From Cereibacter sphaeroides 2.4.1 (GTDB lineage Bacteria; Pseudomonadota; Alphaproteobacteria; Rhodobacterales; Rhodobacteraceae): a DNA stretch of 32,000 nt. This document shows, one piece after another, positions 20,755 to 32,000 of this stretch. Under the pieces are notes generated by a model. That model did no database searches, was not told where the DNA came from, and saw only the letters and a program-made list of their open reading frames with translations. The DNA lies in NCBI RefSeq assembly GCF_000012905.2, contig NC_007494.2, forward strand, positions 720,001 through 752,000, read 5' to 3'. The stretch's first letter is position 1. The number at the start of each line of letters is the position of its first letter. The position numbers and the translations under genes are program-made.

Positions 20755-20762
20755 CCCGGCGC

Positions 20763-21074
20763 ATGCAAGACGGGGGGCAGACCCGCTCCCCGTGCTCGCA
20801 TCCTCTTCCTCCCGCGCCGCAGGGCGGGCCCGCGCGCGACGTGCCCTCGATCTTCCGCGAGGAGCAGGTCGAGGCCGAGGATCCCGAGGGCCGGATCGTG
20901 CTCGTCAGGGCGCCCACCTGGCGCGTGCGCCGCGATCTGGTTCCCGAGCTCGCGCGGCGGGACCGGATCCGGCTGGCGGACGGCCGGATCTATGAGGTGG
21001 ACGAGATCTGGCCGCCTGCGACCCCGGCGGCCGACGCGCTCACGCGCTGCACCCTGCGGAAGGTCGCGCCATGA
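20763..21074 (+). CDS. Small phage late protein, possibly head-tail connector/head-closure
   Basis: 103 aa, from the ATG 8 nt after the protease stop. The C-terminal pattern RIRLADGRIYEVDEIWP is reminiscent of head-tail joining proteins. Assigned on position, with weak motif support. Confidence 0.45.
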   Translation: MQDGGQTRSPCSHPLPPAPQGGPARDVPSIFREEQVEAEDPEGRIVLVRAPTWRVRRDLVPELARRDRIRLADGRIYEVDEIWPPATPAADALTRCTLRKVAP

Positions 21075-21490
21075 CCGGGCGCATCCGCTTCCGCCAGATC
21101 GCGCGCGCGGCGCTCGCCGCCGATCCGCGCATGGGCGGCTTCTCGCAGATCTCCGCCTGGGAGGCGCGCCCCGACGCAGGCCGCCTGCCGCTCCTCATGG
21201 TGGTGACGCCGGTCGAGCGGGCGACGCAGGCCACGCTCTCCAACTTCGAGCGCGCGACCGTCCTGCAGGTGGGCGTGAAGCGGCTCGGCCGCGACGATCT
21301 CGAGGATCTCCTCGACGCGGATGCGGATGCCGTCGAGGGCGCCATCTGCCGGGCGTTCCAGCAGGCGGCCATCGTCTGTCTGCCCGAGGAGGTGACGGTC
21401 ACGCTCAACACCGAAGGCGAGCAGGCCGTGGGCACGCTGATCTCGAGCTTCCGCATCGTCTGGCGCAGGCCGGTTCCCCGGCCCGCTTGA
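21071..21490 (+). CDS. Small phage late protein, possibly tail-completion/connector (HK97 gp10-like?)
   Basis: ATGA overlap with the previous gene. 139 aa with protein-like composition. No firm family call. Confidence 0.5.
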   Translation: MTGRIRFRQIARAALAADPRMGGFSQISAWEARPDAGRLPLLMVVTPVERATQATLSNFERATVLQVGVKRLGRDDLEDLLDADADAVEGAICRAFQQAAIVCLPEEVTVTLNTEGEQAVGTLISSFRIVWRRPVPRPA

Positions 21491-21508
21491 TCCCATGGAG
21501 GCAATAAG

Positions 21509-22517
21509 ATGACACGCGATGAGGCGACCGCGTTGCGCGCGGCCCTGCTGACTATCAAGGCCCTTCCGGTCGGCGCCACGCACCCGCCTGAGGTGTCCGA
21601 TCTGCGGCCGAGGTTGCTCACCCTCGGACTGGTCGAGGCGAAAGATTACCCGGAAGGCCGCCGCTACGCCGACCTTCCCCGGCCTCACCTTCAACGGCGA
21701 GGTGGGCTCGAACACGGGCTTCTTCCTCGCGGCCGAGAACGAGCTCGGCGTCTCCTGCCAGGGGACGGAACGGGCGCGGTTCACGCCGTCGGGCATGCAG
21801 CTGCAGGGGCTCCTCTCCGGCACGGCCGTGACCCAGGGCGATCTCGACACCACGCCCGGGCGCCTCCTGAAGGTCGGAGACTATGGCCTCGGCGGCACGG
21901 CGCGCCCGATCCCGGGCAACGACGCGGACCAGATCGGGACGACGGGCTTCTATCAGGTCACAAGCGCCACGCTGAACCGTCCCGCCGGCATGGGCGTCGG
22001 CACCCTGCAGCACATCCAGCACGGGGCCGCGCGGGCGGTGCAGATCGCCTATCCCCAGACGGCCAGCGATACCGGGCGCTGGTGCCGTTACAAGGATACC
22101 AGCTGGGGCGACTGGTTCCTCACCTACGACCAGCGCAACATCGTGGGCGCCGTCAGCTGGTCCTCCGGCTTCCCGCGCGGCGGCATCATCGAAAAGGGAG
22201 AGACGGCTGGCGCCGAGTATGTCCGCTTTGCGGATGGGACGCAGCTTTGCCGCCTGGTCCAGACAGGGGTCCCGGGTCCGACCATTGCGCAGGGCTCGCT
22301 CTATCGCACCGAATGGCAGACGGTGACGCTGCCCGTCGAGTTCGTGAGCGCGGCCCTGAACGGCCATTGCGTGACCGGCGGCTGCCGGGGTGGCTCGGTG
22401 ATCTCGCTCCTCGGCCGGCCGGGGGCCTCGAACGTCGCCGCCTACATGCTGCTGTCGCCGACGTCCTACGGGGCCACGCAGACCGTCGATCTTCTCGTCA
22501 TCGGCCGCTGGAGGTAA
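21509..22517 (+). pseudogene. Tail-fibre-like protein interrupted by a +1 frame change near 21650-21665
   Basis: GGAGG + ATG 21509 opens frame 2 (MTRDEATALRAALLTIKALPVGATHPPEV...DYPEG). The conserved fibre N-terminal block TFPGLTFNGEVGSNTGFFLAAENELGVSCQGTERARF and the remaining 270 aa are in frame 3. Frame 3 has no ATG/GTG/TTG before GTG 21702, which lies inside that block. Confidence 0.6.
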
Positions 22518-22523
22518 CCCGCC

Positions 22524-22841
22524 ATGATGCGCATTCGCATGGTTCCGCTTCGGCGGATGTATGAGCTGACCGTCTTCCGCGTGCAGGGCGACACCCTGAC
22601 CTGCAATGACATGGTCTACGACTTCAGCGGCGTCGAGGAGGGAGACGTGCTGCCCTGGGACGCCATGGACAATACCTGGGTCACCAGCAACGTCACCCGC
22701 GTGAACGGCGTCCTCGAGTTCGAGGTGGTCTTCCCCCACGGCTATTACGGGGACAATCCGCTGCCGAACCCCGGCATCCTCGAGGTCGAGGATCAGGACA
22801 TCCCGATCCCGCCCTACCTCCCGCCGTCCGCGGAAGGCTGA
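22524..22841 (+). CDS. Hypothetical phage protein downstream of tail fibre (assembly/chaperone role possible)
   Basis: 105 aa, 6 nt after the fibre stop, with an acidic/aromatic composition. No family recognised. Confidence 0.5.
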   Translation: MMRIRMVPLRRMYELTVFRVQGDTLTCNDMVYDFSGVEEGDVLPWDAMDNTWVTSNVTRVNGVLEFEVVFPHGYYGDNPLPNPGILEVEDQDIPIPPYLPPSAEG

Positions 22842-22844
22842 TCC

Positions 22845-23171
22845 ATGAGCAGGAAGAGAGCAGCAATGACGAACGCGACCATCGATTACAGCAGGCTCAT
22901 CAAGGCCCGGGACATCAAGGCGCAGCGCGACCTGATCCCGGCCGAGATCAGCCTGCTGCAGGCCATGATCGTGATCGGCGAGGAGAAGTGGGGCCAGGCC
23001 ATGACCATCGCAGACAACGCCTCCTACCCCTGGGCAATGCGGGCGGCGATCCGCAGCGCGACGACGCTCGTCCGGGGATCGGAGACGATGGACACGCTGG
23101 CCTTCCTCCTCGGCTTCTCGCCCGAGGAGACCGACCGGCTGTTCATTGAGGCCGCGCAGGTGACGCTGTGA
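22845..23171 (+). CDS. Hypothetical phage protein
   Basis: 108 aa, 3 nt after the previous stop, with protein-like composition. Confidence 0.5.
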   Translation: MSRKRAAMTNATIDYSRLIKARDIKAQRDLIPAEISLLQAMIVIGEEKWGQAMTIADNASYPWAMRAAIRSATTLVRGSETMDTLAFLLGFSPEETDRLFIEAAQVTL

Positions 23172-23304
23172 GTCTCATCGAGCAGGCGCGCGTCAAGCAG
23201 TCGGCCGCCTGAGGCGCCCCCGCCTTCCCGATCATCATGACAGGACCCGGCCGCTCCCGGCCGGGCCGACATACGCGCATGGCGCACACAACAGGAGCGG
23301 CGCG

Positions 23305-23622
23305 ATGCCGGAAAAGGGACTGATCGACACCATCACGGCGCTCTGGGGCGGGGCCATCGCCACGCTGATCGCGGCCGCCATGGGCCGGCTCATGTATCAC
23401 ACCGGCGAGGTCCGCGCCCGCCGCCGCGCCTTCTTCGGCCGCGAGCTCCTCTGGGAGATCCCCGCCCTCGTCGCCATGGCCTTCATCGGCGAGGCTCTCA
23501 GCTCGTACCTCAATCTCGACGGTCGGGCGGCCATGGGGCTCGTGGCGATGCTCGCCTATCTGGGGCCAAGGGGCACCACGGCGATGATCGAACGGCTCTG
23601 GCGGGGGAGGAGCGCCGGGTGA
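23305..23622 (+). CDS. Holin-like small membrane protein
   Basis: 105 aa with three hydrophobic segments (ITALWGGAIATLIAAAMG, LLWEIPALVAMAFIGEAL, AAMGLVAMLAYLG) and a basic C-terminus. Located in the lysis region. Confidence 0.55.
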   Translation: MPEKGLIDTITALWGGAIATLIAAAMGRLMYHTGEVRARRRAFFGRELLWEIPALVAMAFIGEALSSYLNLDGRAAMGLVAMLAYLGPRGTTAMIERLWRGRSAG

Positions 23623-23674
23623 CGGCGCATGACCACGGAACCGGTGAGCGCTCCAAGGCCGCCCTTCGGCACGA

Positions 23675-23896
23675 TCAGGATGCGAGCGCCTTCCGCAGCG
23701 CCTCGTTCACGAAGGCGCTCTTGTTCGGCATCCCGTCCAGCCTGGAGGCGAGCTCCGGATCGATCATCAGGTTCATGCGCACCTTCTTCTGCTCGCTCGG
23801 CTTCGGCGGCCGGCCGCGGCGCGCGTTTGCAAAGAAGGGATCGTCCAGCTCGCGGACCTCGTCGTCGTCGCCGATGTAGGGTTTTGCCTTAGCCAT
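23675..23896 (-). CDS. brnA: BrnA-type antitoxin (RHH/CopG-like)
   Basis: 73 aa, ...RGRPPKPSEQKKVRMNLMIDPELASRLDGMPNKSAFVNEALRKAL. It overlaps the stop of the upstream BrnT-like gene by 8 nt. Confidence 0.75.
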   Translation of the reverse strand: MAKAKPYIGDDDEVRELDDPFFANARRGRPPKPSEQKKVRMNLMIDPELASRLDGMPNKSAFVNEALRKALAS

Positions 23897-24197
23897 ACTT
23901 CCTCTCCTCTCGGGCGTTCGCCTTGCGCAGGCTGATCACGCGGAGCACGTCACCCCGCCAGCACCAGGCCACAACGCAAAGACGGTCGCGGATGGGCGCG
24001 ACGGTGATGTAGCGGGTCTCCGGGTAGGGCCGCCGCGTGTCCTCGAGGGTCAGCGCGGCATCCCAGTCGATCAGAGCAACGTCGGCGAAATCGAGGCCGC
24101 GGTCTGCCAGCGTGGCCTGCCGCTTATCTTCGTTCCATTCGAGTTCGATGCCGTCGCTCACGGGATTAAATATACACACGCAAAAGGCAGCAATCAA
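23889..24197 (-). CDS. brnT: BrnT-type toxin (DUF497 ribonuclease)
   Basis: IELEWNEDKRQATLADRGLDFADVALIDWDAALTLEDTRRPYPETRYITVAPIRDRLCVVAWCWRGDVLRVISLRKANAREERKY fits the BrnT/DUF497 pattern. The true start is probably GTG 24159-24161. Confidence 0.8.
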   Translation of the reverse strand: MIAAFCVCIFNPVSDGIELEWNEDKRQATLADRGLDFADVALIDWDAALTLEDTRRPYPETRYITVAPIRDRLCVVAWCWRGDVLRVISLRKANAREERKYG

Positions 24198-24388
24198 TAT
24201 AGGTGTGTAGTCAAAAGCGGTCGCGCGACAGCGCGGCCGTAGCGCCTCTCAGGCAGGGGCCGGGCTGCGTTAACAGCCCGAACCACGCGGCCAAAGTCTC
24301 ACCCAAGACCGCGCCAGCCTGTCCGAAGCCTTTCAGACTGCCTGCCACCCCTCGCGAGGGCAGGCGCCTTGTGAGGCAGAATCACCTT

Positions 24389-25195
24389 ATGAAACAAGTA
24401 CCTCCCGCCGCCCCGGTGGCCCCGTGGCTCGGCGGCAAGAAACGTCTCCACCCGCTCATCCTCGAGCGGATCGAGGCCATCCCGCACCGCGCCTATGTCG
24501 AGCCCTTCGTCGGCATGGGCGGGATCTTCCTCCGTCGCCGCTTCCGGCCCCGCCTCGAGGTCATGAACGACCGCAACGGCGAGATCATCAACCTCTTCCG
24601 GATCCTGCAGCGCCACTATCCCCAGCTCCTCGAGATCATGCGGTTCCAGATCTGCAGCCGGCGCGAGTTCGACCGGCTGCGGCTCACCGATCCCGCCACG
24701 CTCACCGACCTCGAGCGGGCCGCGCGGTTCCTCTACCTCCAGCGCCTCAGCTTCGGCGGCAAGCTCGACGGGGTCTTCGGCGTCTCGGCCGGGCACGGGC
24801 CCCGCTTCTCGCTCGCGCGGCTCGAGCCGGTGCTCGACGCCGCCCACGAGCGGCTCGATGGCGTGGTGTTCGAGAGCCTCGACTGGGCCGACCTCATCCC
24901 GCGCTACGACACGACCGAGACGCTCTTCTATCTCGACCCGCCCTATTTCGGCGGCGAGAACGACTACGGAAAAGGCCTCTTCGACCGGGCGCAGTTCGCG
25001 CGGATCGCCGAGATCCTGGGCGGCCTGAAGGGCGCCTTCCTCCTGTCGATCAATGACACGCCGGAGATCCGGGCGCTCTTCGGCCGGTTCCACCTCGAGC
25101 CGGTGCGGCTGAGCTACTCGGTCTCCGCCTCGGGCGGCACCGAGGCGCAGGAGCTCCTCGTCTCGAACCGCGAGCGGATCGCGACCCTGCTCTGA
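24389..25195 (+). CDS. dam: DNA adenine methyltransferase, D12 class (Dam-like), orphan
   Basis: PWLGGKKRL, EPFVGMGGIF and the DPPY motif (LFYLDPPYFGGENDYG). Starts at ATG 24389 (MKQVPP). No restriction partner is adjacent. Confidence 0.9.
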   Translation: MKQVPPAAPVAPWLGGKKRLHPLILERIEAIPHRAYVEPFVGMGGIFLRRRFRPRLEVMNDRNGEIINLFRILQRHYPQLLEIMRFQICSRREFDRLRLTDPATLTDLERAARFLYLQRLSFGGKLDGVFGVSAGHGPRFSLARLEPVLDAAHERLDGVVFESLDWADLIPRYDTTETLFYLDPPYFGGENDYGKGLFDRAQFARIAEILGGLKGAFLLSINDTPEIRALFGRFHLEPVRLSYSVSASGGTEAQELLVSNRERIATLL

Positions 25196-25221
25196 GCAAT
25201 CCCACCAGTCCAACCACCCAC

Positions 25222-25245
25222 GCCCCGCCCTCGCGCGGGGCTTTT
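25222..25245 (+). terminator. Canonical rho-independent terminator between dam and the endolysin
   Basis: GCCCCGC-cctcgc-GCGGGGC followed by TTTT (25242-25245). It ends 4 nt before the endolysin ATG. Confidence 0.7.
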
Positions 25246-25249
25246 GCAT

Positions 25250-26059
25250 ATGGAGAAAGACGTGACGACATCCGACATCCAGCGGCTCTTGTCGGCCGCC
25301 GGGCTCTACCGCGGCGCCATCGAAGGCGATGCGGGGCCGCTGACCCAGGCGGCCGCACTGGCGGCGCTCGAGGGAGAGCCGGTGCCCTGGCGCGCCTGGC
25401 CCTCCCGCCGGCAGCGCATCGCGGCCGGCCAGGCGGTGCTGGCGCGGCTCGGCCACGCGCCGGGTCGGATCGACGGGCTCCTCGGGCCCTACACCCGCGA
25501 GGCGCTGACCGCCTGGGCCTCCGGGCCGGCGCGGGCCGCCGTCGACCGGGTGCCGCTGCCGGGCCACGCGGTGACCGATGCCCAGGGCGCCTATCCGCGG
25601 CAGGAGTCGGTTGCGACCTTCTACGGCGTGGCGGGCGGTCCCGACTGCACCGCCGGCATCGTCGAGCTGCCGTTCCCGTTCCGCCTCGCCTGGGATCTCA
25701 ACACGGGCATCACGAGCTTCCGGTGCCACAAGCTGGTGGCCATGCCCCTGACGCGGATCTTCCGCGAGGCGGTGGCGCACTACGGCGCCGTTCAGTTCGA
25801 GAGCCTGCGGCTGAACCTCTTCGGCGGCTGCTTCAACCACCGGCCCATGCGTGGCGGCTCGGCCCTCTCGATGCACGCCTGGGGCATCGCCGTCGACCTC
25901 GACCCCGAGCGCAACCCGCTCCGCTGGGGCCGCGACCGGGCGAGCTTCGCCGCGCCCGCCTACGAGCCCTTCTGGACCATCGTCGAAGCCGCCGGAGCCA
26001 CGAGCCTCGGCCGAGCCTGCAACCGCGACTGGATGCACTTCCAGTTCGCCCGCCTCTGA
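25250..26059 (+). CDS. Endolysin: N-terminal peptidoglycan-binding repeats + C-terminal M15 zinc peptidase
   Basis: IQRLLSAAGLYRGAIEGDAGPLTQAA and LARLGHAPGRIDGLLGPYTREAL are PG-binding-like. SMHAWGIAVDLD and DWMHFQF form the M15 H..D...H metal site. Confidence 0.88.
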   Translation: MEKDVTTSDIQRLLSAAGLYRGAIEGDAGPLTQAAALAALEGEPVPWRAWPSRRQRIAAGQAVLARLGHAPGRIDGLLGPYTREALTAWASGPARAAVDRVPLPGHAVTDAQGAYPRQESVATFYGVAGGPDCTAGIVELPFPFRLAWDLNTGITSFRCHKLVAMPLTRIFREAVAHYGAVQFESLRLNLFGGCFNHRPMRGGSALSMHAWGIAVDLDPERNPLRWGRDRASFAAPAYEPFWTIVEAAGATSLGRACNRDWMHFQFARL

Positions 26060-26633
26060 AGGAGAGACCATATGTCCCCGATCTTCACTCTCGCGCCCCA
26101 GGCGCCCCTCGTCCTCATGCTCGCCCTCTGCGCGCTGGCCTTCATCCTGCTCGTCGGCTGGCCGCTGGTCGCGGCCATCGCCCGGATGCGCGCTTCGCTG
26201 ATCGCCGCCGCGATCCTCGCCACGCTCGCGGTGCCCGCCGCAGCCTCGACCGGCAGCGACCTGCTGACCGCGCTGACGCCAAGCCTCCTCGATCTCGCGG
26301 GCGTGGCACTGACCGCGTTGATCGGCTTCGCGACGGTGCGCTTCCAGCGCTGGACTGGGATTCAGATCGAGGCCCGGCACCGTGAGGCGCTGCATTCGGC
26401 AATCATGACCGCTGCCCGCGTGGCGGTGGCGCGGGGACTGACACGCGAGATCGCGGCCGAGTTCGTCTCGTCTTACGTCCGCGCCTCCGTGCCTGAGGCA
26501 ATGAAGCGCCTGTCGCCCTCGGTTGATACGCTCGACGCGCTTGTCCGCTCTAAGCTGCTTGAGGTGGCCGGGAACTGACCGTCAATTTTGGCCACGGGCG
26601 CGGCAAGCGTCCGTGCCCCTGTAACCGCAATGG
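25592..26633. repeat. Direct repeat copy 2 (intact lysis cassette); partner at 9717-10770
   Basis: See copy 1. Confidence 0.9.
26072..26578 (+). CDS. Lysis-module membrane protein (holin/spanin-like?; paralogue at 10204-10717)
   Basis: 168 aa with several hydrophobic helices in the N-terminal 100 aa, then a soluble tail. GGAGAG lies before ATG 26072, 12 nt after the endolysin stop. Confidence 0.7.
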   Translation: MSPIFTLAPQAPLVLMLALCALAFILLVGWPLVAAIARMRASLIAAAILATLAVPAAASTGSDLLTALTPSLLDLAGVALTALIGFATVRFQRWTGIQIEARHREALHSAIMTAARVAVARGLTREIAAEFVSSYVRASVPEAMKRLSPSVDTLDALVRSKLLEVAGN

Positions 26634-27129: not shown

Positions 27130-27903
27130 TCACTCTTTGGCTGCCTCATCCTCACGTTGCTCCGCCCACTCGGGGGCTGGACCGCTGGCGAAGGACCACT
27201 CACGGCGGGTCTTCAGCTTGAGCTTTGCGAGCTGCTTCTGAATACGCTCAATCGTCAAAGCTTCGACAAGATCGACCAAATCGCGCCACTCATTGGCGCC
27301 CCGGACATAATACCCCATTCTGGATTGCACGCTGACCTTAAACTCTCCCCGGACGAAATCAATTATCATTGAACCGTCTACAGAGTAGTGCCCGTCGTTG
27401 TGTGCGTACCGCTGATTTCTCGCGTCGATGATGTCCTGATGCGCTTGGCGGAGATGGTTCGGGATCTGCCTCCTGCCGACACCGCTGCTTCCATTCCCTC
27501 CCTCGATCACTCGGCAATAAGCAACAACGAATGCCAAGGTCATCATTTCGTGGTCGAGCAGATCGTCTACATTTGTGCTGAATGGCGCTTTCGCCAAACG
27601 ATTATGGATGTGGCGAAGAGCGGCCACTGCGGGGAGCGAAGCGAGGATGCGGCTGAGCTTCTCGAGCTCTCCTGTGACAGGGTTAATCACGCTTTGCATC
27701 TCAGCCTTCACCGCCGCAAGCTGGAGCTGCAGGTCTGTTGGCAGAGAAGAGGATATCTCGTCCGTGACATTTATCACCTCATACTGATCGCCGCCGGCCA
27801 CAGCCCACCTCCCTCTACCTTCCTGATCTACAATGTCGGGCACCAACAGCGGTGCCAACGAAAATCCGGCAACCTCACTCAACTGCGCGCTACTGCCTGT
27901 CAA
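27130..27903 (-). CDS. Hypothetical protein with an R-x5-H motif (possible HEPN-like; speculative)
   Basis: 257 aa from TTG 27903. A better start is GTG 27799-27801, preceded by GGGAGG 6 nt upstream (223 aa). Motif: DIIDARNQRYAHNDGHY. Helical prediction by eye. No family recognised. Confidence 0.6.
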   Translation of the reverse strand: MTGSSAQLSEVAGFSLAPLLVPDIVDQEGRGRWAVAGGDQYEVINVTDEISSSLPTDLQLQLAAVKAEMQSVINPVTGELEKLSRILASLPAVAALRHIHNRLAKAPFSTNVDDLLDHEMMTLAFVVAYCRVIEGGNGSSGVGRRQIPNHLRQAHQDIIDARNQRYAHNDGHYSVDGSMIIDFVRGEFKVSVQSRMGYYVRGANEWRDLVDLVEALTIERIQKQLAKLKLKTRREWSFASGPAPEWAEQREDEAAKE

Positions 27904-28419: not shown

Positions 28420-28450
28420 TTGCAAACAGATGAAACCATCTGATTGATAG
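28420..28450 (+). promoter_or_regulatory. Putative promoter with embedded perfect palindrome (operator-like) upstream of the four-gene operon
   Basis: TTGCAA (28420-28425) is a possible -35 and ATTGAT/TGATAG (28443-28450) a possible -10. CAGATG-aaac-CATCTG (28427-28442) lies between them. A 7-bp hairpin GGCCGAA-ctc-TTCGGCC follows at 28466-28482 in the leader. Confidence 0.35.
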
Positions 28451-28517
28451 ACCAGAGAAGACAATGGCCGAACTCTTCGGCCTCCAGAGTTTCGCAAACT
28501 GATAAGGATCAACGAAA

Positions 28518-28895
28518 TTGGGCAGCAGCGGATCGGGCAGGTTTTCTGACTATAGTGGCGCAGAACGACAATCCGAAGGGAGAGGGGGTGAGTCTGGAGG
28601 CTCGAGTGGAGGCGACAGATGTCGTCAAGCCTTCAGTGTCAGCCTCGAAGATGTTGGACTGTACAGCTATTTCTCCAAAACAGGCACTGTGCCTACAGTT
28701 GGCACTGCTCTGACATTGACATTTAGAACGCGCATCTTGGCCGCCGATGCAGCTGGCGTAGAGATTGGCGCGTTGCCAACGCCATTCAACTACTTGGCCG
28801 CATGTATTAGAGATGGCATTAGCTATACTGGAGTTGTCACGAATTCCAGTGCGTTGCCCGCGCCTAGGGTGGATGTCGATTTTGTGCCGGTATAA
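28518..28895 (+). CDS. Small protein (125 aa) with Gly/Ser-rich N-terminal tail and a beta-rich C-terminal domain; first gene of the operon
   Basis: The frame opens at 28506. The first and only upstream start is TTG 28518, with AAGGA at 28504-28508. It ends 2 nt before the next ATG. The N-terminal 35 aa contain 20 Gly/Ser (MGSSGSGRFSDYSGAERQSEGRGGESGGSSGGDRC). Confidence 0.65.
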   Translation: MGSSGSGRFSDYSGAERQSEGRGGESGGSSGGDRCRQAFSVSLEDVGLYSYFSKTGTVPTVGTALTLTFRTRILAADAAGVEIGALPTPFNYLAACIRDGISYTGVVTNSSALPAPRVDVDFVPV

Positions 28896-28897
28896 CG

Positions 28898-30226
28898 ATG
28901 CTTGACAAGCCTGTCCTACTGCTGGGCGAAATCTGCGTGGATTTCACGCTTTCTACGCCAATGTCATCCGCCAAGATGCGCCTTGGCGGCGTAGTTCACG
29001 CAGCAAGGGGTCTGTGGGCATTAAATGTACCGTACTCGGTAGCCGCTATTTGCCCAGATTATCTGGTCTCAGAGGCGGAGGCGTATCTTTACGCTCATGG
29101 ATGTACTAACTTCATTCAGGTAGGCACTGTGCTTGGCGCCCCTAACGTCTTCCTAATTGGAGACGCGAGAGAAGTGGGGCATCAGGGATACGAGAACATC
29201 CTGCGCGAAGCAAAGAAGGTGCTGACGTTCGATCTAGACGAGAAACTAAGGGGCTTCAAAAACATAGTAGTTTATCCGGGCACTTTCGATTTCGAGGGTA
29301 TTGTCAAAAACCTTGATAGCGACGCGAAAATCACTGTTGACATTGCATACGACGTGAATGATGCAGATGAACTTTCCAGAGTTTACGGCGCATCTCATGC
29401 GCTAGCCATATCAACATCATCTGAGTTATTTTCCTCTCTTGCCCTTGAGAATTTGGGGCCACTTTTGAAGGCCTGCAAGACTCGAAGCGCAAAGCATCTT
29501 CTGCTAAAGGAGAATAGAGGGGGGAGCAGACTATTCGACTTAGAATCCGGAGAAAGCTGGGAAATCCCAGCCACACTGGCTAGAACAGTAAACTCTGTGG
29601 GGGTGGGCGATGTTTATACCGCTGTATTTGCGGCATTAATAGACCATGGCGCACTTACGGCCGCCCTTCGCGGGATGCAAGCTGCTACACGCTACGCGCA
29701 GACGACATTTCCCGACGACTTCAAGAGAGACGTTCAACGTGACTTCAAGCTAACACCTGATGAAGTCCTGTCGCTGGGCGGTGTACTGCTGCCATGGCAC
29801 GACCGACCTCACTTCGAAATTTATCTGGCCGCACCTGACTTCTCGTATATGGAGAAAGCTGAAGTTGACGCTGCAGTGGAGGCGCTCCTCTATCATAATT
29901 TTACGGTCAGACGCCCCGTACAAGACAATGGAGAAGCATGCCCTGGAACCCCGGCGGAAGATCTGCGGTCCTACTACGATAGAGATGTCGAACTGTTGAG
30001 GCGCTGCAGTTTAGTATTTGCTGTCCCGCTGAACCGCGATCCAGGAACGCTTGTTGAAATTGGCCTTGCCATTGCGGCTGGCACGCCGGTCGTTACCTAC
30101 GATCCGCGGCAAGAGAACAATAATACGATGGTGATCTGCGGCAGCGACGCCTACTCAGATGACTTGGACCAGTGCTTGAACTCGACGTTCGAACTTCTCG
30201 CCAAACTGCGGGAGCAAGCGAAATGA
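28898..30226 (+). CDS. Fusion protein: PfkB-family sugar/nucleoside kinase (aa 1 to about 290) + nucleoside 2-deoxyribosyltransferase/DNPH1-like domain (aa about 305-442)
   Basis: Kinase part: MRLGGVVHAARGLWAL (GG motif) and TVNSVGVGDVYTAVFAALI (PfkB signature 2 with the catalytic Asp). C-terminal part: FEIYLAAPDFS ... NRDPGTLVEIGLAIAAGTPVVTYD (NDT-family AGPxF-like loop and D.GT..E.G.A motif with the conserved Glu). Confidence 0.88.
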   Translation: MLDKPVLLLGEICVDFTLSTPMSSAKMRLGGVVHAARGLWALNVPYSVAAICPDYLVSEAEAYLYAHGCTNFIQVGTVLGAPNVFLIGDAREVGHQGYENILREAKKVLTFDLDEKLRGFKNIVVYPGTFDFEGIVKNLDSDAKITVDIAYDVNDADELSRVYGASHALAISTSSELFSSLALENLGPLLKACKTRSAKHLLLKENRGGSRLFDLESGESWEIPATLARTVNSVGVGDVYTAVFAALIDHGALTAALRGMQAATRYAQTTFPDDFKRDVQRDFKLTPDEVLSLGGVLLPWHDRPHFEIYLAAPDFSYMEKAEVDAAVEALLYHNFTVRRPVQDNGEACPGTPAEDLRSYYDRDVELLRRCSLVFAVPLNRDPGTLVEIGLAIAAGTPVVTYDPRQENNNTMVICGSDAYSDDLDQCLNSTFELLAKLREQAK

Positions 30227-30846
30227 GCTTCGCGCTATTAATGGCATCTGGCGGGTTGGACTCGACAACAGTTGCATACTGGCTCACCGAAAGGGGGGTA
30301 CAATTTATTCCGGTCTTCTTCGACTACGGGCAGCACTGCGTGGAGACCGAGTGGGAAACACTTAAGGAGGTACTGCCAGCATCGGCTGCACATCCAGAAA
30401 GAAATGATATCTCCGACCTTTTTAGGGGATCGAAGTCAAGGTTGATAACAGAGGCTGACCTTTGGAATGAAGAGGTGAAGGATGAAGATCTTTACGTGCC
30501 TTACCGAACTCTTCTATTCTATTCTGCAGCTGCGGCACGTGCCCAGACACTGGGAGCGTTTGAGGTTTACACCGGCTTTATCAACAGCAACCGCGCTAAG
30601 GAGATCGACTGTACGGCCGAGTTCATGAACAAGCTCGACGCGCTTACTGACTCGGTTGGTCCAGTCCGGTTCTTGTCACCGTTTCGCTTCTGGTCCAAGT
30701 CAGAAGTCGCAAAGGAATCTATTCGACTGGGAGTTCCAATTGGGCGCACCTTCTCCTGCCAAGCTGCGAGCCTGATGCCTTGTGGCGCTTGCCCTAACTG
30801 CGTCGAACGTCTAGCAGCGCTTCGAGAAACAGGGTTACTGGCATGA
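30223..30846 (+). CDS. QueC-like PP-loop ATP pyrophosphatase (7-cyano-7-deazaguanine synthase family paralogue)
   Basis: ATGA overlap with the upstream stop. MSFALLMASGGLDSTT (SGGLDS PP-loop), FFDYGQH, VPYRTLLF, and a zinc knuckle SCQAASLMPCGACPNC (C-x8-C-x2-C-x2-C). Confidence 0.9.
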   Translation: MSFALLMASGGLDSTTVAYWLTERGVQFIPVFFDYGQHCVETEWETLKEVLPASAAHPERNDISDLFRGSKSRLITEADLWNEEVKDEDLYVPYRTLLFYSAAAARAQTLGAFEVYTGFINSNRAKEIDCTAEFMNKLDALTDSVGPVRFLSPFRFWSKSEVAKESIRLGVPIGRTFSCQAASLMPCGACPNCVERLAALRETGLLA

Positions 30847-31508
30847 GCTCGATGGCTATAGACAACGACGCGGTGGAAATTCTCATTGCTGCACGGCGGG
30901 TTGCAAACTTTGCGTGTCTCCAGGGCGTCCCTGCCGATTCGCGCCACCCTCGCGCGTGTTATCAGCACATGGGTGCGATCCTCGTCGACACAACGTTACA
31001 GGCTGGGCTGAATTACGCAAATGTGGTGCGGCCCAGAGTTACGCGTGCACTTGCGCTGTTTCCAGAAGCGACGACGATTGGCGCCCTCATAGAGATTGTT
31101 GAATCTGGCAAGAGCGCAGCGATTTTAAACTGGCAGCATCCGTTAAAGATATCAAGATTCGAGAGGATTGTAAATTTCTTACATCGCAACGATGTTCGAG
31201 ACTCGAAGGAACTTCGAAGAAGGCTTTCGAATAAAGATTTTTGTGCTTTACTTCAAGATATCCACGGAGTGGGGCCAAAAACGGTGGACTACATGGCGTG
31301 CTTGGTTGGCGTTGAGTCTATTGCGGTAGATCGACACATAAGAAGCTTTGCCCAAGAAGTTGGCATACTGGATAAAGACTATTCCTTCCTGAAACATGTG
31401 TTTTGTGCAGCCGCGGATCTACTCGCTATATCGAGACGAGAATTCGATGCATGGGTTTGGCGTCACGAAGTTGAGCGCAAGTCACCACAAATGGCCTTTT
31501 CGTTCTAG
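30843..31508 (+). CDS. HhH-GPD superfamily DNA-glycosylase-like protein (EndoIII/OGG-like, no Fe-S cluster motif)
   Basis: ATGA overlap with the QueC-like stop. ILVDTTLQAGLNYANV, LLQDIHGVGPKTVDYMACLVGVESIAVDRHIRSFAQEVGI: helix-hairpin-helix with Lys in GVGPKT and Asp in VDRH, at the positions of the EndoIII catalytic Lys/Asp (recall). There is no C-terminal Cys-x6-Cys-x2-Cys-x5-Cys. Confidence 0.85.
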   Translation: MSSMAIDNDAVEILIAARRVANFACLQGVPADSRHPRACYQHMGAILVDTTLQAGLNYANVVRPRVTRALALFPEATTIGALIEIVESGKSAAILNWQHPLKISRFERIVNFLHRNDVRDSKELRRRLSNKDFCALLQDIHGVGPKTVDYMACLVGVESIAVDRHIRSFAQEVGILDKDYSFLKHVFCAAADLLAISRREFDAWVWRHEVERKSPQMAFSF

Positions 31509-31767: not shown

Positions 31768-32000
31768 CTAGATGGGCTTAAACATGCTTTCCGCGACATC
31801 TGACTTGAGCCGAGCCCAGAACTCTACGGCATACCTATCCGTCATTCCTGCGACAAAGTCGCAAATGTGACGCGCCTGCAAATCCTTATCCCCACCGGCC
31901 TCCTGAACCCGCTTGCGCACGTCGTCGGGCATAAGCAGATGTCCGCTCTTCTTTTCCAGCGCCTCGAATATTTCCCCCACCAACTCGGTACCACGGTACT
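31768..32000 (-). CDS. dGTPase-like HD-domain triphosphohydrolase, C-terminal end only (5' part outside the window)
   Basis: The frame stays open to the window edge. ...ARHICDFVAGMTDRYAVEFWARLKS is the conserved C-terminal dGTP triphosphohydrolase block (D.iaGMTDryA). Convergent with the operon. Confidence 0.7.
   Translation of the reverse strand, partial: YRGTELVGEIFEALEKKSGHLLMPDDVRKRVQEAGGDKDLQARHICDFVAGMTDRYAVEFWARLKSDVAESMFKPI

What the first reader, a model, noticed from the sequence alone, without database searches (positions are those of the whole stretch)
28420..31508. Four-gene operon (Gly/Ser-tailed small protein, PfkB-NDT fusion, QueC-like, HhH-GPD glycosylase-like): candidate undescribed 7-deazapurine-linked defence or modification system
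**Seen.** The four + strand ORFs are packed with a 2-nt gap (28895/28898) and two ATGA stop/start overlaps (30223-30226, 30843-30846). They therefore form one translationally coupled unit, inside an AT-richer island next to a prophage.
- Gene 3 has the QueC hallmarks: an SGGLDS PP-loop, FDYGQ, VPYR, and a C-x8-C-x2-C-x2-C zinc site.
- Gene 4 has an EndoIII/OGG-type HhH-GPD fold, with Lys and Asp at the catalytic positions but no Fe-S motif.
- Gene 2 fuses a PfkB kinase to a nucleoside 2-deoxyribosyltransferase/DNPH1-like domain.
- Gene 1 is a 125-aa protein with a Gly/Ser tail.
- There is no queD/queE/queF/tgt, so this is not a queuosine pathway.

**Established.** QueC-like genes outside tRNA modification occur in three known contexts:
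- QatABCD (QatC).
- Type IV CBASS, whose ancillary set is, as I recall, QueC-like Cap9 + TGT-like Cap10 + OGG-like Cap11.
- Dpd 7-deazaguanine DNA modification.

**Inference.** QueC-like + a base-exchanging N-glycosyl transferase (NDT-type here instead of TGT-type) + an HhH glycosylase reproduces the type IV CBASS ancillary logic. However, there is no CD-NTase, no Qat ATPase/TatD and no DpdA. It therefore fits none of the described architectures.
Basis: partly seen in the sequence, partly recalled or inferred. Interest (0 to 1): 0.9.

Follow-up and report, generated by a model that had tools for sequence, protein, structure and literature searches.

The report
Predicted new protein-deazaguanylation defence cassette
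This is a conserved, mobile four-gene cassette that probably attaches a 7-deazaguanine base to the tip of a small DNA-end-binding protein and then processes that base with a sugar-transferring kinase fusion and a DNA-glycosylase-like enzyme; it looks like an unrecognised relative of the deazaguanylation immune modules of type IV CBASS and QatABCD.

Summary
There are four + strand genes at 28518-31508, joined by a 2-nt gap and two ATGA overlaps. They lie in a 51-57% GC island beside a prophage lysis module in a ~70% GC Cereibacter sphaeroides genome.

- **Gene 3** is a QueC-family enzyme. Its closest solved relative is Cap9, and it fails the NCBIfam cut-offs for canonical QueC.
- **Gene 4** is a divergent Cap11/OGG-like HhH-GPD enzyme with the catalytic Lys and Asp.
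- **Gene 2** is a full PfkB kinase fold fused to a nucleoside 2-deoxyribosyltransferase (NDT) domain with its catalytic Glu.
- **Gene 1** starts with an almost invariant MGS(S/T)GSGxF(S/T)DY tail, like the N-termini that Cap9 deazaguanylates. A disordered linker and a HIRAN-like (DNA 3'-end-binding) fold follow.
- **Conservation:** the same order is complete in 72/80 genomic loci from several phyla and 15/17 viral contigs. Flanks are unrelated and rich in defence and mobility genes.
- **Relatives:** plasmid-borne sister operons keep tail protein + PfkB-NDT + QueC-like, with OGG-like, nitroreductase-like, NUDIX or dGTPase partners.

**Best reading:** a CD-NTase-independent deazaguanylation system, probably anti-phage, with the NDT-kinase in the place of TGT-like Cap10. 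Nothing has been tested experimentally. One 2026 paper noted the QueC/PfkB-NDT pairing and called it purine salvage.

The parts
28466..28482 (.). Perfect 7-bp palindromic hairpin (GGCCGAA-gag-TTCGGCC as listed on the - strand), 36 nt upstream of the g1 start. Possible operator or transcript-end element; role unknown.
   Evidence: listed as terminator-like on the - strand; sequence read. Conservation in other loci was not tested.
28504..28508 (+). Shine-Dalgarno AAGGA for g1, 9 nt before the TTG start.
   Evidence: Sequence. In 62 of 65 homologous loci the equivalent start is an ATG preceded by a G-rich GGAG/GGGG-type SD.
28518..28895 (+). g1, 125 aa, predicted deazaguanylation substrate. It has an N-terminal MGSSGSGRFSDY tail (aa 1-12), a disordered Gly/Ser linker (aa 13-32) and a HIRAN-like beta-rich domain (aa 33-125, nt 28614-28892).
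   Evidence: - Alignments A1/A5: M1 G2 S3 G5 D11 Y12 C35 C96 N91 Y92 are invariant.
- AF2 pLDDT is >95 for aa 33-125 and ~45-50 for the tail.
- Foldseek finds HLTF HIRAN domains and lp_0118 (E 5e-4 to 2e-3, probability 1.0), and a HIRAN-annotated phage protein in BFVD.
- There are 314 clusters at 50% identity, almost all stand-alone proteins of 115-140 aa.
28898..30226 (+). g2, 442 aa: a PfkB/ribokinase-fold kinase (aa ~1-300) fused to a nucleoside 2-deoxyribosyltransferase domain (aa ~305-442).
   Evidence: - Pfam Nuc_deoxyrib_tr 6.6e-15; PDB NDTs 3e-7.
- Invariant NSVGVGD238 (PfkB catalytic Asp motif), GG30-31, Y309, D381 and E387 in DPGTLVEIG (NDT nucleophile motif).
- AF2 pLDDT 90.9; Foldseek finds ketohexokinase, ribokinase and pseudouridine kinase at 1e-13 to 1e-11.
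30223..30846 (+). g3, 207 aa: QueC-family ATP pyrophosphatase, Cap9-like, the predicted ligase that joins a 7-deazaguanine carboxylate to Gly2 of g1.
   Evidence: - Pfam QueC 1.6e-32; PADLOC CBASS QueC 1.4e-24; TIGR00364 91.4 bits, below the 150.3 cut-off; QatC 14.6 bits against 280.
- The best solved relative is Cap9 9nto_B at 3.8e-16, then QueC 2pg3 and 3bl5.
- Motifs SGGLDS, YGQ(x)5E, PF(x)4K, DCxxxF and C-x7-C-x2-C-x2-C are present.
30843..31508 (+). g4, 221 aa: divergent OGG/Cap11-like HhH-GPD glycosylase (probably glycosylase/lyase) with Lys146 and Asp163 and no Fe-S cysteines.
   Evidence: - PADLOC OGG 2.2e-6; 18/21 family members hit this model.
- A family profile against PDB finds MagIII 1e-3, EndoIII 2e-3 and archaeal Ogg 0.03.
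- hhalign probability 93% to the sister-operon OGG, which itself passes Pfam Ogg-HhH.
- Pfam Ogg-HhH on g4 itself scores only 13.6 bits, below the 27 cut-off.
31768..32000 (-). C-terminal end of a dGTPase-like HD phosphohydrolase, cut by the window end. It is convergent with g4 and is a recurrent neighbour and possible accessory of the cassette.
   Evidence: - Pfam HD_assoc 7.5e-15.
- The full-length gene in the same island matches the PADLOC anti-phage dGTPase model at 2.4e-120.
- A dGTPase lies within 10 kb in 15/97 loci and directly after g4 in 10.
- It is in-operon in the Moraxella sister system.

Best explanation
The cassette encodes a self-contained protein-deazaguanylation pathway. It is carried as cargo on prophages, plasmids and defence islands, and most likely serves anti-phage defence.

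**Step 1 (inferred from an established rule).** The initiator Met of g1 is removed because residue 2 is Gly. This exposes the Gly2 alpha-amine at the tip of a flexible ~30-residue tail.

**Step 2 (inferred by homology and motif).** g3 is a Cap9-like QueC-family enzyme. It adenylates a 7-deazaguanine carboxylate, most likely host-made 7-carboxy-7-deazaguanine, and ligates it to Gly2. The result is an N-terminal 7-amido-7-deazaguanine (NDG) adduct, as Cap9 makes on type IV CBASS CD-NTases.

**Step 3 (speculative).** The NDT domain of g2 stands where TGT-like Cap10 stands in CBASS. It engages the free N9 of the tethered base and transfers a 2'-deoxyribosyl group onto it. The donor could be deoxyguanosine, which the frequently adjacent dGTPase would supply. 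The fused PfkB kinase then phosphorylates the 5'-OH, giving a protein-linked deoxynucleotide.

**Step 4 (speculative).** The HIRAN-like domain of g1 holds a DNA 3' end, for example a phage replication or packaging intermediate. The tagged tail is therefore delivered to DNA.

**Step 5 (speculative).** g4 is an OGG/Cap11-like glycosylase with catalytic Lys and Asp. It cuts the N-glycosidic bond of the adduct, either to reset the system or to nick the DNA.

My confidence of 0.55 applies to steps 1-2 and the defence role. Steps 3-5 are a working model, at about 0.2.
For: **Tail of g1**
- The first 12 residues are almost invariant across 72 aligned family members (A5), while the following linker varies in sequence and length.
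- The start is an ATG with a Shine-Dalgarno sequence in 62/65 loci, so the protein really begins with MG.
- Published NDG acceptors begin M(G/S)G(G/S)GG: the CdnD peptide is GGSGGSFGSGFDPR (bioRxiv 10.1101/2025.04.06.647259, read). QatB begins MGTS (PMC13279940).
- AF2 predicts the tail as disordered and the remainder as a confident domain.

**g3**
- Its nearest solved relative is Cap9.
- It shares the Cap9 variants of the QueC motifs and the Cap9 cysteine spacing (compared with the motifs listed in PMC13329287).
- It keeps the Asp that binds NDG (D129), judged from the alignments and from PMC13639016.
- It fails the canonical QueC equivalog cut-offs.

**Obligatory partnership**
- The g1-g2-g3-g4 order is complete in 72/80 genomic and 15/17 viral loci.
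- A PfkB-NDT-QueC single-chain fusion occurs in B. cereus.
- One metagenomic protein (P0307) joins a g1-like domain to g2 in one chain; it lacks the MG tail and may be an assembly or frameshift artefact.
- The sister operons in P. aeruginosa, Moraxella, Citrobacter, Synechocystis, Roseivivax and Halorubrum all start with a small protein beginning MSGSGG or MGGGSGG.

**g2**
- The catalytic residues of both domains are invariant.
- Both folds are confirmed.

**g4**
- It is OGG/Cap11-like, with the Lys and Asp.

**HIRAN-like fold of g1**
- It is recovered from two independent structure libraries.

**Defence context**
- Of 129 immediately flanking ORFs, 11 match the PADLOC dGTPase model. Others match Septu, Gabija, mad3, PDC-S18 and DRT-type RT models. 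Resolvases, integrases and transposases are also present.
- In C. sphaeroides the cassette lies between a prophage lysis module and a serine recombinase, next to an anti-phage dGTPase.
- TIR genes flank the Halorubrum and P. aeruginosa variants.
- There is no preQ1 riboswitch.
Against: - There is no experimental datum for any step.
- The Tyr that stacks on NDG in Cap9 (Y115; Y129 in B. subtilis QueC) is an invariant Glu (E127) in g3, so the conjugated acid may not be CDG.
- For QatC, a tail-bearing partner did not guarantee CDG ligation: in vitro reconstitution with CDG failed (PMC13639016).
- g1 and g2 match no PADLOC model.
- g1 has no sequence-level similarity to HIRAN. The HIRAN assignment rests on an AF2 model, and the residues of the 3'-OH pocket were not checked.
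- The defence-neighbour count used crude ORF calls and had no formal background model.
- GenBank phage genomes hold no g2 homologue.
- Nothing shows that an NDT can accept a protein-tethered base.
Confidence: 0.55

Rival explanations
1. The front end is the same (g3 deazaguanylates g1), but g2 is the effector rather than a transferase acting on the tail. The NDT-like domain, with the kinase, destroys deoxynucleosides, nucleotides or NAD-like molecules. It does this together with the neighbouring dGTPase: dGTP to dGuo, then phosphorylation and N-glycosidic cleavage. The NDG tail of g1 plugs the base pocket of the NDT as a tethered inhibitor. Binding of phage DNA 3' ends by the HIRAN-like domain pulls the plug.
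For: - In type IV CBASS the NDG tail sits in the Cap10 active site of an inactive complex (paper read).
- NDT-like domains already serve as depleting effectors in retron Ec86 (bioRxiv 10.1101/2023.08.16.553469).
- dGTPase association is recurrent and sometimes operonic.
- NUDIX and nitroreductase-like partners occur in the sister operons.
Against: - The best NDT-domain matches are genuine nucleoside 2-deoxyribosyltransferases (3e-7), ahead of nucleotide N-glycosidases (MilB 1.4e-5). No DNPH1-type enzyme appears among the matches at E up to 0.1.
- This model does not explain why an OGG-like DNA glycosylase is an obligatory fourth gene in this family.
- It has not been tested.
Confidence: 0.2
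2. The cassette is small-molecule or DNA-modification metabolism, not protein modification. g3 makes a 7-deazaguanine base (preQ0- or ADG-like) from CDG. The NDT converts it to a 2'-deoxynucleoside, and the PfkB kinase phosphorylates it for salvage, for a nucleoside antibiotic or for incorporation into DNA. g4 edits such bases in DNA, and g1 is a DNA-binding accessory. This extends the 'purine salvage' reading of Libby et al. 2026.
For: - The PfkB-NDT/QueC pairing was interpreted this way in PMC13329287.
- The Roseivivax variant lies next to a VUT/YhhQ-type 7-deazaguanine precursor transporter.
- g3 keeps much of the QueC active site.
- Kinase + NDT is a natural nucleoside-to-nucleotide route (my inference).
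Against: - This reading gives no reason for the near-invariant, disordered MG(S/T)-Gly/Ser N-terminus. That tail is found on the first gene of every variant, from Bacillus to Halorubrum.
- g3 fails the canonical QueC cut-offs.
- No queD/E/F, tgt or dpdA gene and no preQ1 riboswitch is nearby.
- Distribution is sporadic and mobile, with defence-gene neighbours.
Confidence: 0.15
3. The cassette is a decayed type IV CBASS or Qat remnant, or a chance adjacency of unrelated genes.
For: g3 and g4 hit the PADLOC CBASS QueC and OGG models.
Against: - The identical four-gene order, with intact ORFs, recurs in 72/80 genomic and 15/17 viral loci across several phyla, with invariant catalytic residues.
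- No CD-NTase, Cap10, QatA or QatD appears in any listed neighbourhood.
- Translational coupling is preserved in the window.
Confidence: 0.01

Closest known systems
Type IV CBASS ancillary module Cap9 (QueC-like) / Cap10 (TGT-like) / Cap11 (OGG-like), also found with Thoeris TIR proteins
   Same: - A Cap9-like QueC-family enzyme: the best solved match is 9nto, and the cysteine spacing and motif variants are the same.
- A partner protein whose N-terminus is M-G/S followed by Gly/Ser residues.
- An OGG-like HhH-GPD protein.
- An enzyme of base-exchanging N-glycosyl chemistry in the third position.
- Location on mobile elements or defence islands.
   Different: - There is no CD-NTase or TIR signalling enzyme and no recognised downstream effector.
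- The tail sits on a 125-aa HIRAN-like protein.
- Cap10 (TIM-barrel TGT fold) is replaced by an unrelated NDT fold fused to a PfkB kinase.
- The OGG-like gene is always present here. Cap11 is present in only about a third of type IV CBASS operons and is dispensable for defence.
QatABCD (QatB substrate-like protein + QatC QueC-family enzyme)
   Same: - A QueC-family enzyme is paired with a small non-enzymatic protein that has a disordered N-terminal tail starting MG.
- It is a four-gene operon.
- It sits in a defence context.
   Different: - g3 scores 14.6 bits on the QatC model (cut-off 280) and lacks the QatC extensions.
- g3 keeps the NDG-binding Asp that QatC has lost.
- There is no QatA ATPase and no QatD TatD nuclease.
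- QatB is an all-helical protein of unknown fold, whereas g1 is HIRAN-like.
QueC-family 'Cluster 4' of Libby et al. 2026 (PMC13329287): QueC-like next to a PfkB-NDT fusion, called purine salvage
   Same: - The pairing of a short QueC-like protein with a PF00294-PF05014 fusion in one operon.
- A mainly proteobacterial distribution.
   Different: - The printed motif CH(x)5CxxCxGCxK fits the P. aeruginosa, Moraxella and Citrobacter sister operons, not this family (CQ(x)6CGACPNCVER).
- g3 is only ~27% identical to that type.
- The paper did not report the tail protein or the glycosylase, and proposed metabolism rather than protein modification.
- The fourth gene there is often nitroreductase-like.
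Canonical QueC (preQ0 synthase) of queuosine biosynthesis
   Same: - The PP-loop ATP pyrophosphatase fold.
- A Cys4 zinc site.
- Probable use of a 7-deazaguanine carboxylate.
   Different: - g3 scores below both NCBIfam equivalog cut-offs.
- The YxQxHxxE, VPxRN and YPDC signatures are altered: YGQHCVE, PYRT and EIDC.
- The spacing is C-x7-C.
- There are no que or tgt neighbours.
- It lies on a low-GC mobile island.
HIRAN domain (HLTF; bacterial lp_0118)
   Same: The predicted fold of g1 residues 33-125 matches (Foldseek probability 1.0, rmsd 2.6-2.9 A over ~96 columns).
   Different: - There is no detectable sequence similarity.
- Pocket residues were not verified.
- No HIRAN domain is known to carry a modified N-terminal tail (my knowledge).

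Membership tests
Canonical QueC (TIGR00364 / NF008317 equivalogs) | Score above the curated equivalog cut-off | tested here: not met
   TIGR00364 scores 91.4 bits against 150.3; NF008317 scores 31.8 against 378.
Canonical QueC (TIGR00364 / NF008317 equivalogs) | PP-loop SGGxDS and a Cys4 zinc site with C-x8-C-x2-C-x2-C spacing | tested here: inconclusive
   SGGLDS is present. The cysteines are C179/C187/C190/C193, which is C-x7-C-x2-C-x2-C. That is the Cap9 spacing as given in PMC13329287.
Canonical QueC (TIGR00364 / NF008317 equivalogs) | Catalytic signature YxQxHxxE, VPxRN, YPDC (Libby et al. 2026) | tested here: not met
   The family consensus is YGQHCVE, (I/V)PYRT and KEIDC.
Canonical QueC (TIGR00364 / NF008317 equivalogs) | Genomic or regulatory link to queD/queE/queF/tgt or a preQ1 riboswitch | tested here: not met
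   None appears among the neighbours listed in the window or in the related loci. There is no Rfam hit.
Cap9 of type IV CBASS | QueC fold with the Cap9 motif variants (Y/FxQ(x)5E, DCxxxF, PF(x)4K, C-x7-C-x2-C-x2-C) | tested here: met
   compared with the motifs. The best PDB hit is Cap9 9nto_B at 3.8e-16. The PADLOC QueC model scores 1.4e-24. Exception: the stacking Tyr (Y115) is Glu here.
Cap9 of type IV CBASS | Operon partner with an N-terminal M(G/S)G(G/S)GG-type tail | tested here: met
   g1 begins MGS(S/T)GSG and this is nearly invariant.
Cap9 of type IV CBASS | Operon contains a CD-NTase (or TIR), an effector and TGT-like Cap10 | tested here: not met
   None was seen among the recurrent or top-listed neighbour families of the 97 loci.
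Cap9 of type IV CBASS | Catalyses NDG conjugation to Gly2 of the partner | not testable with these tools
   This needs mass spectrometry.
QatABCD | QatC model score; QatA ATPase and QatD TatD nuclease in the operon | tested here: not met
   NF041925 scores 14.6 bits against 280. No ATPase or TatD gene is in the cassette.
Cap11 / OGG-like HhH-GPD glycosylases | HhH motif followed by a Gly/Pro-rich loop and catalytic Asp; Lys in the HhH for lyase activity | tested here: met
   G142, G144, P145, K146, T147, D163, R164 and H165 are invariant, in the arrangement of the EndoIII/OGG catalytic Lys/Asp motif (my knowledge of those enzymes). hhalign to a bona fide Ogg-HhH protein gives probability 93%.
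Cap11 / OGG-like HhH-GPD glycosylases | Profile match | tested here: inconclusive
   PADLOC OGG scores 2.2e-6, and 18/21 members hit it. Pfam Ogg-HhH scores 13.6 bits against a cut-off of 27. PDB profile hits range from 1e-3 to 0.1.
Nucleoside 2-deoxyribosyltransferase (PF05014) | Gathering cut-off, and a catalytic Glu in the DxGTxxExG motif with the Tyr and Asp partners | tested here: met
   55.7 bits against 28.8. E387, D381, D363 and Y309 are invariant.
PfkB / ribokinase family | Fold plus the GG and NxxGxGD motifs | tested here: met
   Pfam gives only 16.9 bits against 25.8. The AF2 model matches ketohexokinase and ribokinase at 1e-13, TMt 0.6-0.69. G30, G31 and N232-D238 are invariant.
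HIRAN domain | Sequence profile (PF08797) | tested here: not met
   g1 has no Pfam hit at E up to 0.1. A profile search of PDB sequences finds no HIRAN entry.
HIRAN domain | Fold | tested here: met
   The 16 top PDB hits are all HLTF HIRAN or lp_0118, and the next hit has E 0.3. BFVD returns a HIRAN-annotated protein.
HIRAN domain | Pocket that binds a DNA 3'-OH end | not tested
   Model coordinates could not be inspected residue by residue. An EMSA or a structure is needed.
Libby et al. QueC 'Cluster 4' | PfkB-NDT fusion in the operon | tested here: met
Libby et al. QueC 'Cluster 4' | C-terminal motif CH(x)5CxxCxGCxK | tested here: not met
   This family has CQ(x)6CGACPNCVER. The P. aeruginosa-type sister has SCHKSHLACGNCRGCNKY.
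Dpd 7-deazaguanine DNA modification | DpdA (TGT-like) and further dpd genes | tested here: not met
   There is no TGT-like gene in the window or among the recurrent neighbours.

The most novel reading that the evidence does not exclude
This is a third, signalling-enzyme-independent class of deazaguanylation immune system. A HIRAN-like DNA-3'-end-binding protein is first capped with 7-amido-7-deazaguanine. An NDT-kinase fusion then converts it into a protein-linked 2'-deoxynucleotide, using deoxyguanosine from a partner dGTPase. The product is finally joined to, or docked on, phage DNA ends, and an OGG-like enzyme acts as eraser or nickase. If true, it would show that glycosylation at N9 of the tethered base is the missing downstream step of NDG chemistry, a step still unknown for type IV CBASS. 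It would also define a new kind of protein-nucleic-acid linkage.
Probability: 0.2. Interest if true: 0.95.

Novelty: new variant of a known kind. Interest (0 to 1): 0.8.

Why it matters
Protein deazaguanylation was discovered only in 2025. Two things about it remain unknown: what happens to the tethered base after Cap9 installs it, and what QatC really does.

This cassette is a natural experiment on that question.
- The TGT-like Cap10 is replaced by an enzyme whose textbook reaction is to put a deoxyribose on N9 of a purine. That enzyme is fused to a kinase.
- The modified protein is not a signalling enzyme but a small domain predicted to grip DNA 3' ends.
- The OGG-like gene is obligatory here.

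This points to DNA or deoxynucleotide chemistry as the downstream step. It also gives a four-protein system small enough to reconstitute in vitro.

The system is widespread.
- It occurs in more than 100 species representatives.
- About 1,300 protein clusters at 90% identity match g2 at E up to 0.001, sister families included.
- It is found on prophages and plasmids, and has sister forms in Bacillus, cyanobacteria and haloarchaea.
- It is absent from PADLOC v2.

Many genomes therefore carry an unannotated, probably immune, module. Its genes are currently labelled 'nucleoside 2-deoxyribosyltransferase', '7-cyano-7-deazaguanine synthase' and 'hypothetical protein'.

Tried and rejected
- **PADLOC, Pfam and NCBIfam on g1:** no hit.
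- **PDB sequence search with the g1 profile:** only a spurious S-layer match.
- **Rfam on 26.5-32 kb:** nothing, so no preQ1 riboswitch or other known RNA.
- **Sigma-70 promoter and terminator scans:** counts at the level of shuffled controls, and no convincing + strand promoter before g1.
- **GenBank phage collection with g2:** no match, although IMG/VR viral contigs do carry the cassette.
- **hhalign of the g1 family against the P. aeruginosa small protein:** weak (probability 12%). Homology of the sister tail proteins to g1 therefore rests on the shared architecture and a short N-x-L-x-x-C motif. Only the B. cereus protein is clearly homologous.
- **Attempt to decide whether this family is inside Libby's Cluster 4:** the supplement held as text gives one representative (Salmonella A0A5J2UZ21) but no member list. 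The printed motif does not fit, so this stays unresolved.
- **L076, which seemed to lack g1:** this turned out to be an IS3 insertion with a g1 remnant.
- **Decayed CBASS/Qat remnant, or chance adjacency:** considered and rejected on the conservation data.
- **The longer GTG start for g3 (30172):** considered and rejected, because homologues begin at the ATG-equivalent position.
- **Two family scans:** failed on the size limit and were repeated with fewer sequences.

Full report
**1. The observation**

The window holds four + strand ORFs:
- g1: 28518-28895, 125 aa, TTG start.
- g2: 28898-30226, 442 aa.
- g3: 30223-30846, 207 aa.
- g4: 30843-31508, 221 aa.

I read the junctions directly. g1 ends TAA, followed by 'cg' and the ATG of g2. 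g2/g3 and g3/g4 share ATGA overlaps. An AAGGA Shine-Dalgarno sequence precedes the TTG of g1 by 9 nt.

GC is 0.66-0.75 over most of the window and 0.50-0.57 from about 26.5 kb onwards. Upstream lie prophage genes:
- a head-tail attachment protein;
- a Dam-like methyltransferase (24203-25195);
- an M15 endolysin with a peptidoglycan-binding domain (25244-26059).

The description is therefore correct, with three corrections:
- g1 starts at 28518, not 28420.
- Its Gly/Ser stretch is N-terminal.
- The zinc motif of g3 is C-x7-C-x2-C-x2-C, not C-x8-C.

Exact matches to g1 and g2 identify the organism as Cereibacter (Rhodobacter) sphaeroides.

**2. The four proteins**

*g3.*
- It matches Pfam QueC (1.6e-32) and the PADLOC model built for the CBASS QueC-like protein (1.4e-24).
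- It fails both NCBIfam equivalog cut-offs for canonical QueC (91.4 against 150.3 bits; 31.8 against 378).
- It scores 14.6 bits on QatC, whose cut-off is 280.
- Against solved structures, the best hit of the family profile is Cap9 (9nto_B, 3.8e-16), just ahead of QueC 2pg3 and 3bl5.
- The family is very conserved, with 73% mean column identity. It carries SGGLDS, YGQ(x)5E, PF(x)4K, DCxxxF and C-x7-C-x2-C-x2-C. These are the variants that Libby et al. list for Cap9, not those of canonical QueC (PMC13329287).
- Of the two residues that hold the deazaguanine in Cap9 (Y115 and D117, equivalent to Y129 and D131 of B. subtilis QueC; PMC13639016), g3 keeps the Asp (D129) but has an invariant Glu (E127) in place of the Tyr. 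This follows from the alignments.

*g4.*
- It matches the PADLOC CBASS OGG model (2.2e-6), and 18 of 21 family members do so.
- Its profile finds MagIII, EndoIII and archaeal Ogg weakly in PDB.
- It aligns at 93% hhalign probability with the OGG-like protein of a sister operon, which itself passes Pfam Ogg-HhH.
- GIGPK146T and AVD163RH are invariant. They have the arrangement of the catalytic Lys and Asp of EndoIII/OGG-type glycosylase-lyases (my knowledge of those enzymes). There is no Fe-S cysteine cluster.

*g2.*
- It passes the Pfam cut-off for Nuc_deoxyrib_tr. In alignment with solved NDTs it carries the Y309, D363, D381 and E387 set (DPGTLVEIG).
- Pfam sees the PfkB part only weakly. The AlphaFold model (pLDDT 90.9) has a complete ribokinase fold over the first ~300 residues: ketohexokinase, ribokinase and pseudouridine kinase match at 1e-13 to 1e-11, TMt 0.6-0.69.
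- The GG and NSVGVGD motifs are invariant.

*g1.*
- It has no Pfam, NCBIfam, PADLOC or PDB sequence match.
- Its family comprises 314 clusters at 50% identity, nearly all stand-alone proteins of 115-140 aa.
- The N-terminus is striking: M1, G2, S3, G5, D11 and Y12 are invariant and S6, G7 and F9 nearly so. This gives MGS(S/T)GSGx(F/L/I)(S/T)DY, followed by a Gly/Ser-rich linker of variable length.
- In 62 of 65 loci this Met is an ATG with a strong Shine-Dalgarno sequence, so the mature protein should begin with Gly2.
- AlphaFold predicts residues 1-32 as disordered and 33-125 as a very confident small domain.
- Foldseek's 16 best PDB hits are all HIRAN domains: human HLTF, free and DNA-bound, and L. 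plantarum lp_0118 (E 5e-4 to 2e-3, probability 1.0, rmsd 2.6-2.9 A). The next hit is at E 0.3.
- The viral structure library also returns a HIRAN-annotated protein and HIRAN-type helicases.

**3. Conservation and context**

*Co-linearity.*
- A scan of one genome per species found 106 species with a g2 relative.
- In the 80 loci kept, g1-g2-g3-g4 are complete and co-linear in 72.
- Seven of the others are truncated or disrupted at one end of the cassette. L076 has an IS3 element inserted in g1.
- Hosts span Alpha-, Beta-, Gamma- and 'Delta'-proteobacteria, Bdellovibrionales, Acidobacteria and Chthoniobacterales.
- Seventeen IMG/VR viral contigs also carry the cassette. Fifteen are complete and two end inside it.

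*Flanks.*
- Flanks are not conserved. After the four core families, the commonest neighbour family occurs in 15 loci.
- Among 129 immediately flanking ORFs, PADLOC recognises dGTPase (11), Septu PtuA/PtuB, mad3, Gabija GajB, PDC-S18, DRT-type reverse transcriptases and type I methyltransferases.
- Pfam adds resolvases, integrases, transposases and HipA. No que or tgt family is in the list.

*The C. sphaeroides island.*
- The cassette lies between the lysis module of a prophage and a serine recombinase.
- An anti-phage-type dGTPase (PADLOC 2.4e-120) sits directly downstream. Its 3' end is at 31768-32000 in the window.

*dGTPase association.*
- A dGTPase lies within 10 kb in 15 of 97 loci and directly after g4 in 10, twice on the same strand.
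- These dGTPases are only 26-78% identical to one another. The association is therefore not one island copied around.

**4. A wider superfamily**

Distant g2 relatives on plasmids reveal sister operons.

| Host | Tail protein (first gene) | Other genes and context |
|---|---|---|
| P. aeruginosa pPUV-6 | MSGSGGSYLGPD... | PfkB-NDT, QueC-like, nitroreductase; an OGG-like gene plus a Dam methylase convergent; a TIR gene nearby |
| Citrobacter | MSGSGGGSF... | same layout, plus a dGTPase |
| Synechocystis | MSGSGSSGF... | next to a ubiquitin-like ThiF module |
| Moraxella | MSGSGGGINTYNDY... | a dGTPase overlapping the end of the QueC-like gene in the same operon |
| Roseivivax | MSGGGGGRDDY... 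(unannotated ORF) | an OGG-like gene upstream; a VUT/YhhQ-type transporter downstream |
| B. cereus | MGSTGTGQFGDY... (a clear g1 homologue) | one 658-aa PfkB-NDT-QueC fusion; a NUDIX gene upstream |
| Halorubrum (archaeon) | MGGGSGGYERP... with a long acidic linker and two g1-like repeats | PfkB-NDT and QueC-like genes, between TIR genes |

- The core is therefore tail protein + PfkB-NDT + QueC-like. OGG-like, nitroreductase-like, NUDIX and dGTPase genes are recurrent partners.
- The P. aeruginosa QueC-like protein ends SCHKSHLACGNCRGCNKY. That is exactly the motif Libby et al. give for their 'Cluster 4', whose neighbours are PfkB-NDT (89%) and nitroreductase (22%).
- The window's family is only ~27% identical to it (hhalign probability 97%). 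It is a separate branch in which the OGG-like gene has joined the operon.

**5. Mechanism**

*Established facts from the literature.*
- In type IV CBASS, Cap9 adenylates 7-carboxy-7-deazaguanine and ligates it to Gly2 of a CD-NTase whose N-terminus reads M(G/S)G(G/S)GG.
- TGT-like Cap10 then binds the tethered base with its N9 free, 'poised for transfer'.
- Cap11 (OGG-like) is proposed to reverse the transfer, and the target is unknown (bioRxiv 10.1101/2025.04.06.647259).
- QatB has an MGTS tail that enters QatC (PMC13279940).
- Thoeris operons with Cap9-11 exist.

*My preferred reading.*
1. Met removal exposes Gly2 of g1.
2. g3 ligates a 7-deazaguanine carboxylate to it.
3. The NDT domain of g2 acts on the N9 of the tethered base. 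It either transfers a deoxyribosyl group, which the fused kinase then phosphorylates, or simply binds the base.
4. The HIRAN-like domain brings DNA 3' ends into play.
5. g4 cleaves the resulting N-glycosidic bond, as eraser or nickase.

Steps 1-2 are supported by the motif, the homology and the obligatory gene linkage. Steps 3-5 are inference from what these enzyme families normally do.

The dGTPase link suggests deoxyguanosine as the deoxyribosyl donor. It fits a nucleotide-depletion effector model equally well. That model has a precedent: the NDT-like effector of retron Ec86.

*Weak points.*
- There is no experiment.
- The stacking Tyr is replaced in g3.
- CDG ligation could not be reconstituted for QatC.
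- The HIRAN assignment rests on fold only.
- The neighbourhood statistics lack a formal background.

**6. Rivals**

- **Metabolic or DNA-modification reading** (purine or 7-deazapurine salvage). It explains the kinase + NDT + QueC trio. It does not explain an invariant, disordered MG-Gly/Ser tip on the first gene of every variant, the failure of the canonical QueC tests, the mobile and defence-rich context, or the absence of que/tgt genes and riboswitches.
- **Decayed CBASS or Qat remnant.** The conservation data exclude it.

**7. Novelty**

- Literature searches found no description of this operon as a deazaguanylation or defence system. The closest prior art is the single paragraph on Cluster 4.
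- PADLOC v2 has no model for g1 or g2.
- I class it as a new variant of a known kind. The known kind is the QueC-family protein-deazaguanylation module. The new elements are the substrate, the downstream enzymes and independence from CD-NTase, TIR and Qat partners.

**Scores:** interest 0.8; confidence in the core reading 0.55.

Noticed in passing
window 31768-32000 (-), continuing beyond the window; full gene at L086:10926-12347 (-): An anti-phage-type dGTPase (HD + HD_assoc; PADLOC dGTPase 2.4e-120) lies convergent with g4. Divergent dGTPases (26-78% identical) sit directly after g4 in 10 other loci, twice co-directional. One overlaps the QueC-like gene in the Moraxella sister operon. It may be a functional partner, as a deoxyguanosine supplier or in nucleotide depletion, rather than a mere island neighbour.
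   Followed up: partly
window 27130-27903 (-): A 257-aa ORF lies in the same low-GC island, between the prophage lysis genes and the cassette. It has only a sub-threshold HEPN_AbiU2 match (E 0.009, 16 bits against a cut-off of 26.8) and no PADLOC hit. It may be another defence gene.
   Followed up: partly
window 28466-28482: A perfect 7-bp stem, 3-nt loop palindrome (GGCCGAAGAGTTCGGCC on the - strand) lies 36 nt upstream of the g1 start. Its role is unknown, and I did not check whether other loci have an equivalent.
   Followed up: no
window 19260-26578: This is the end of a prophage: a head-tail attachment protein (19260-21074), a Dam-like D12 methyltransferase (24203-25195), an M15 endolysin with a PG_binding_1 domain (25244-26059), and a 168-aa ORF with no Pfam match that looks like a membrane protein (26072-26578). 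In sister strains a holin and a BrnT toxin lie just upstream (L084).
   Followed up: partly
L081:5628-7950 (Bacillus cereus plasmid pC1L1): A g1 homologue (MGSTGTGQFGDY...) is followed by a single 658-aa polypeptide that fuses PfkB, NDT and QueC domains, with a NUDIX gene just upstream. This is Rosetta-stone evidence that g2 and g3 act together.
   Followed up: partly
L082:4397-7282 (Halorubrum lacusprofundi pHLAC01): This archaeal variant has a 362-aa first protein. It consists of an MGGGSGGYERP tail, a ~200-residue highly acidic linker and two tandem g1-like domains. PfkB-NDT and QueC-like genes follow, all set between TIR-domain genes, with a DUF262 gene nearby.
   Followed up: no
L091:~3033-3400 (Roseivivax sp. 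THAF30 plasmid): The tail-protein ORF (MSGGGGGRDDYTPP...) is not annotated in the record. It lies between an OGG-like gene and the PfkB-NDT gene. A VUT/YhhQ-family (queuosine-precursor salvage) transporter gene lies downstream of the QueC-like gene.
   Followed up: no
L083, L090, L092 (P. aeruginosa, Synechocystis, Citrobacter plasmids): In these sister operons a ~276-281-aa gene paired with a DNA adenine methylase lies convergent with the QueC-like operon. It is annotated 8-oxoguanine DNA glycosylase in Citrobacter, is clearly homologous in P. aeruginosa, and was not compared in Synechocystis. The role of the methylase is unexplained.
   Followed up: no
P0307 (526-aa metagenomic protein): A g1-like domain is joined in one reading frame to a g2-like protein, but without the MG tail. 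It is either a genuine fusion or an assembly or frameshift artefact.
   Followed up: no
L076:8169-8650: An IS3-family element is inserted into g1, leaving only its C-terminal remnant, while g2-g4 stay intact. This is the only locus that at first appeared to lack g1.
   Followed up: yes
L084, L085, L087, L088 (public gene calls for C. sphaeroides assemblies): g1 is not called as a gene in several public assemblies, probably because of its TTG start, and g3 is missed in two. Automated annotation therefore under-reports this cassette.
   Followed up: no
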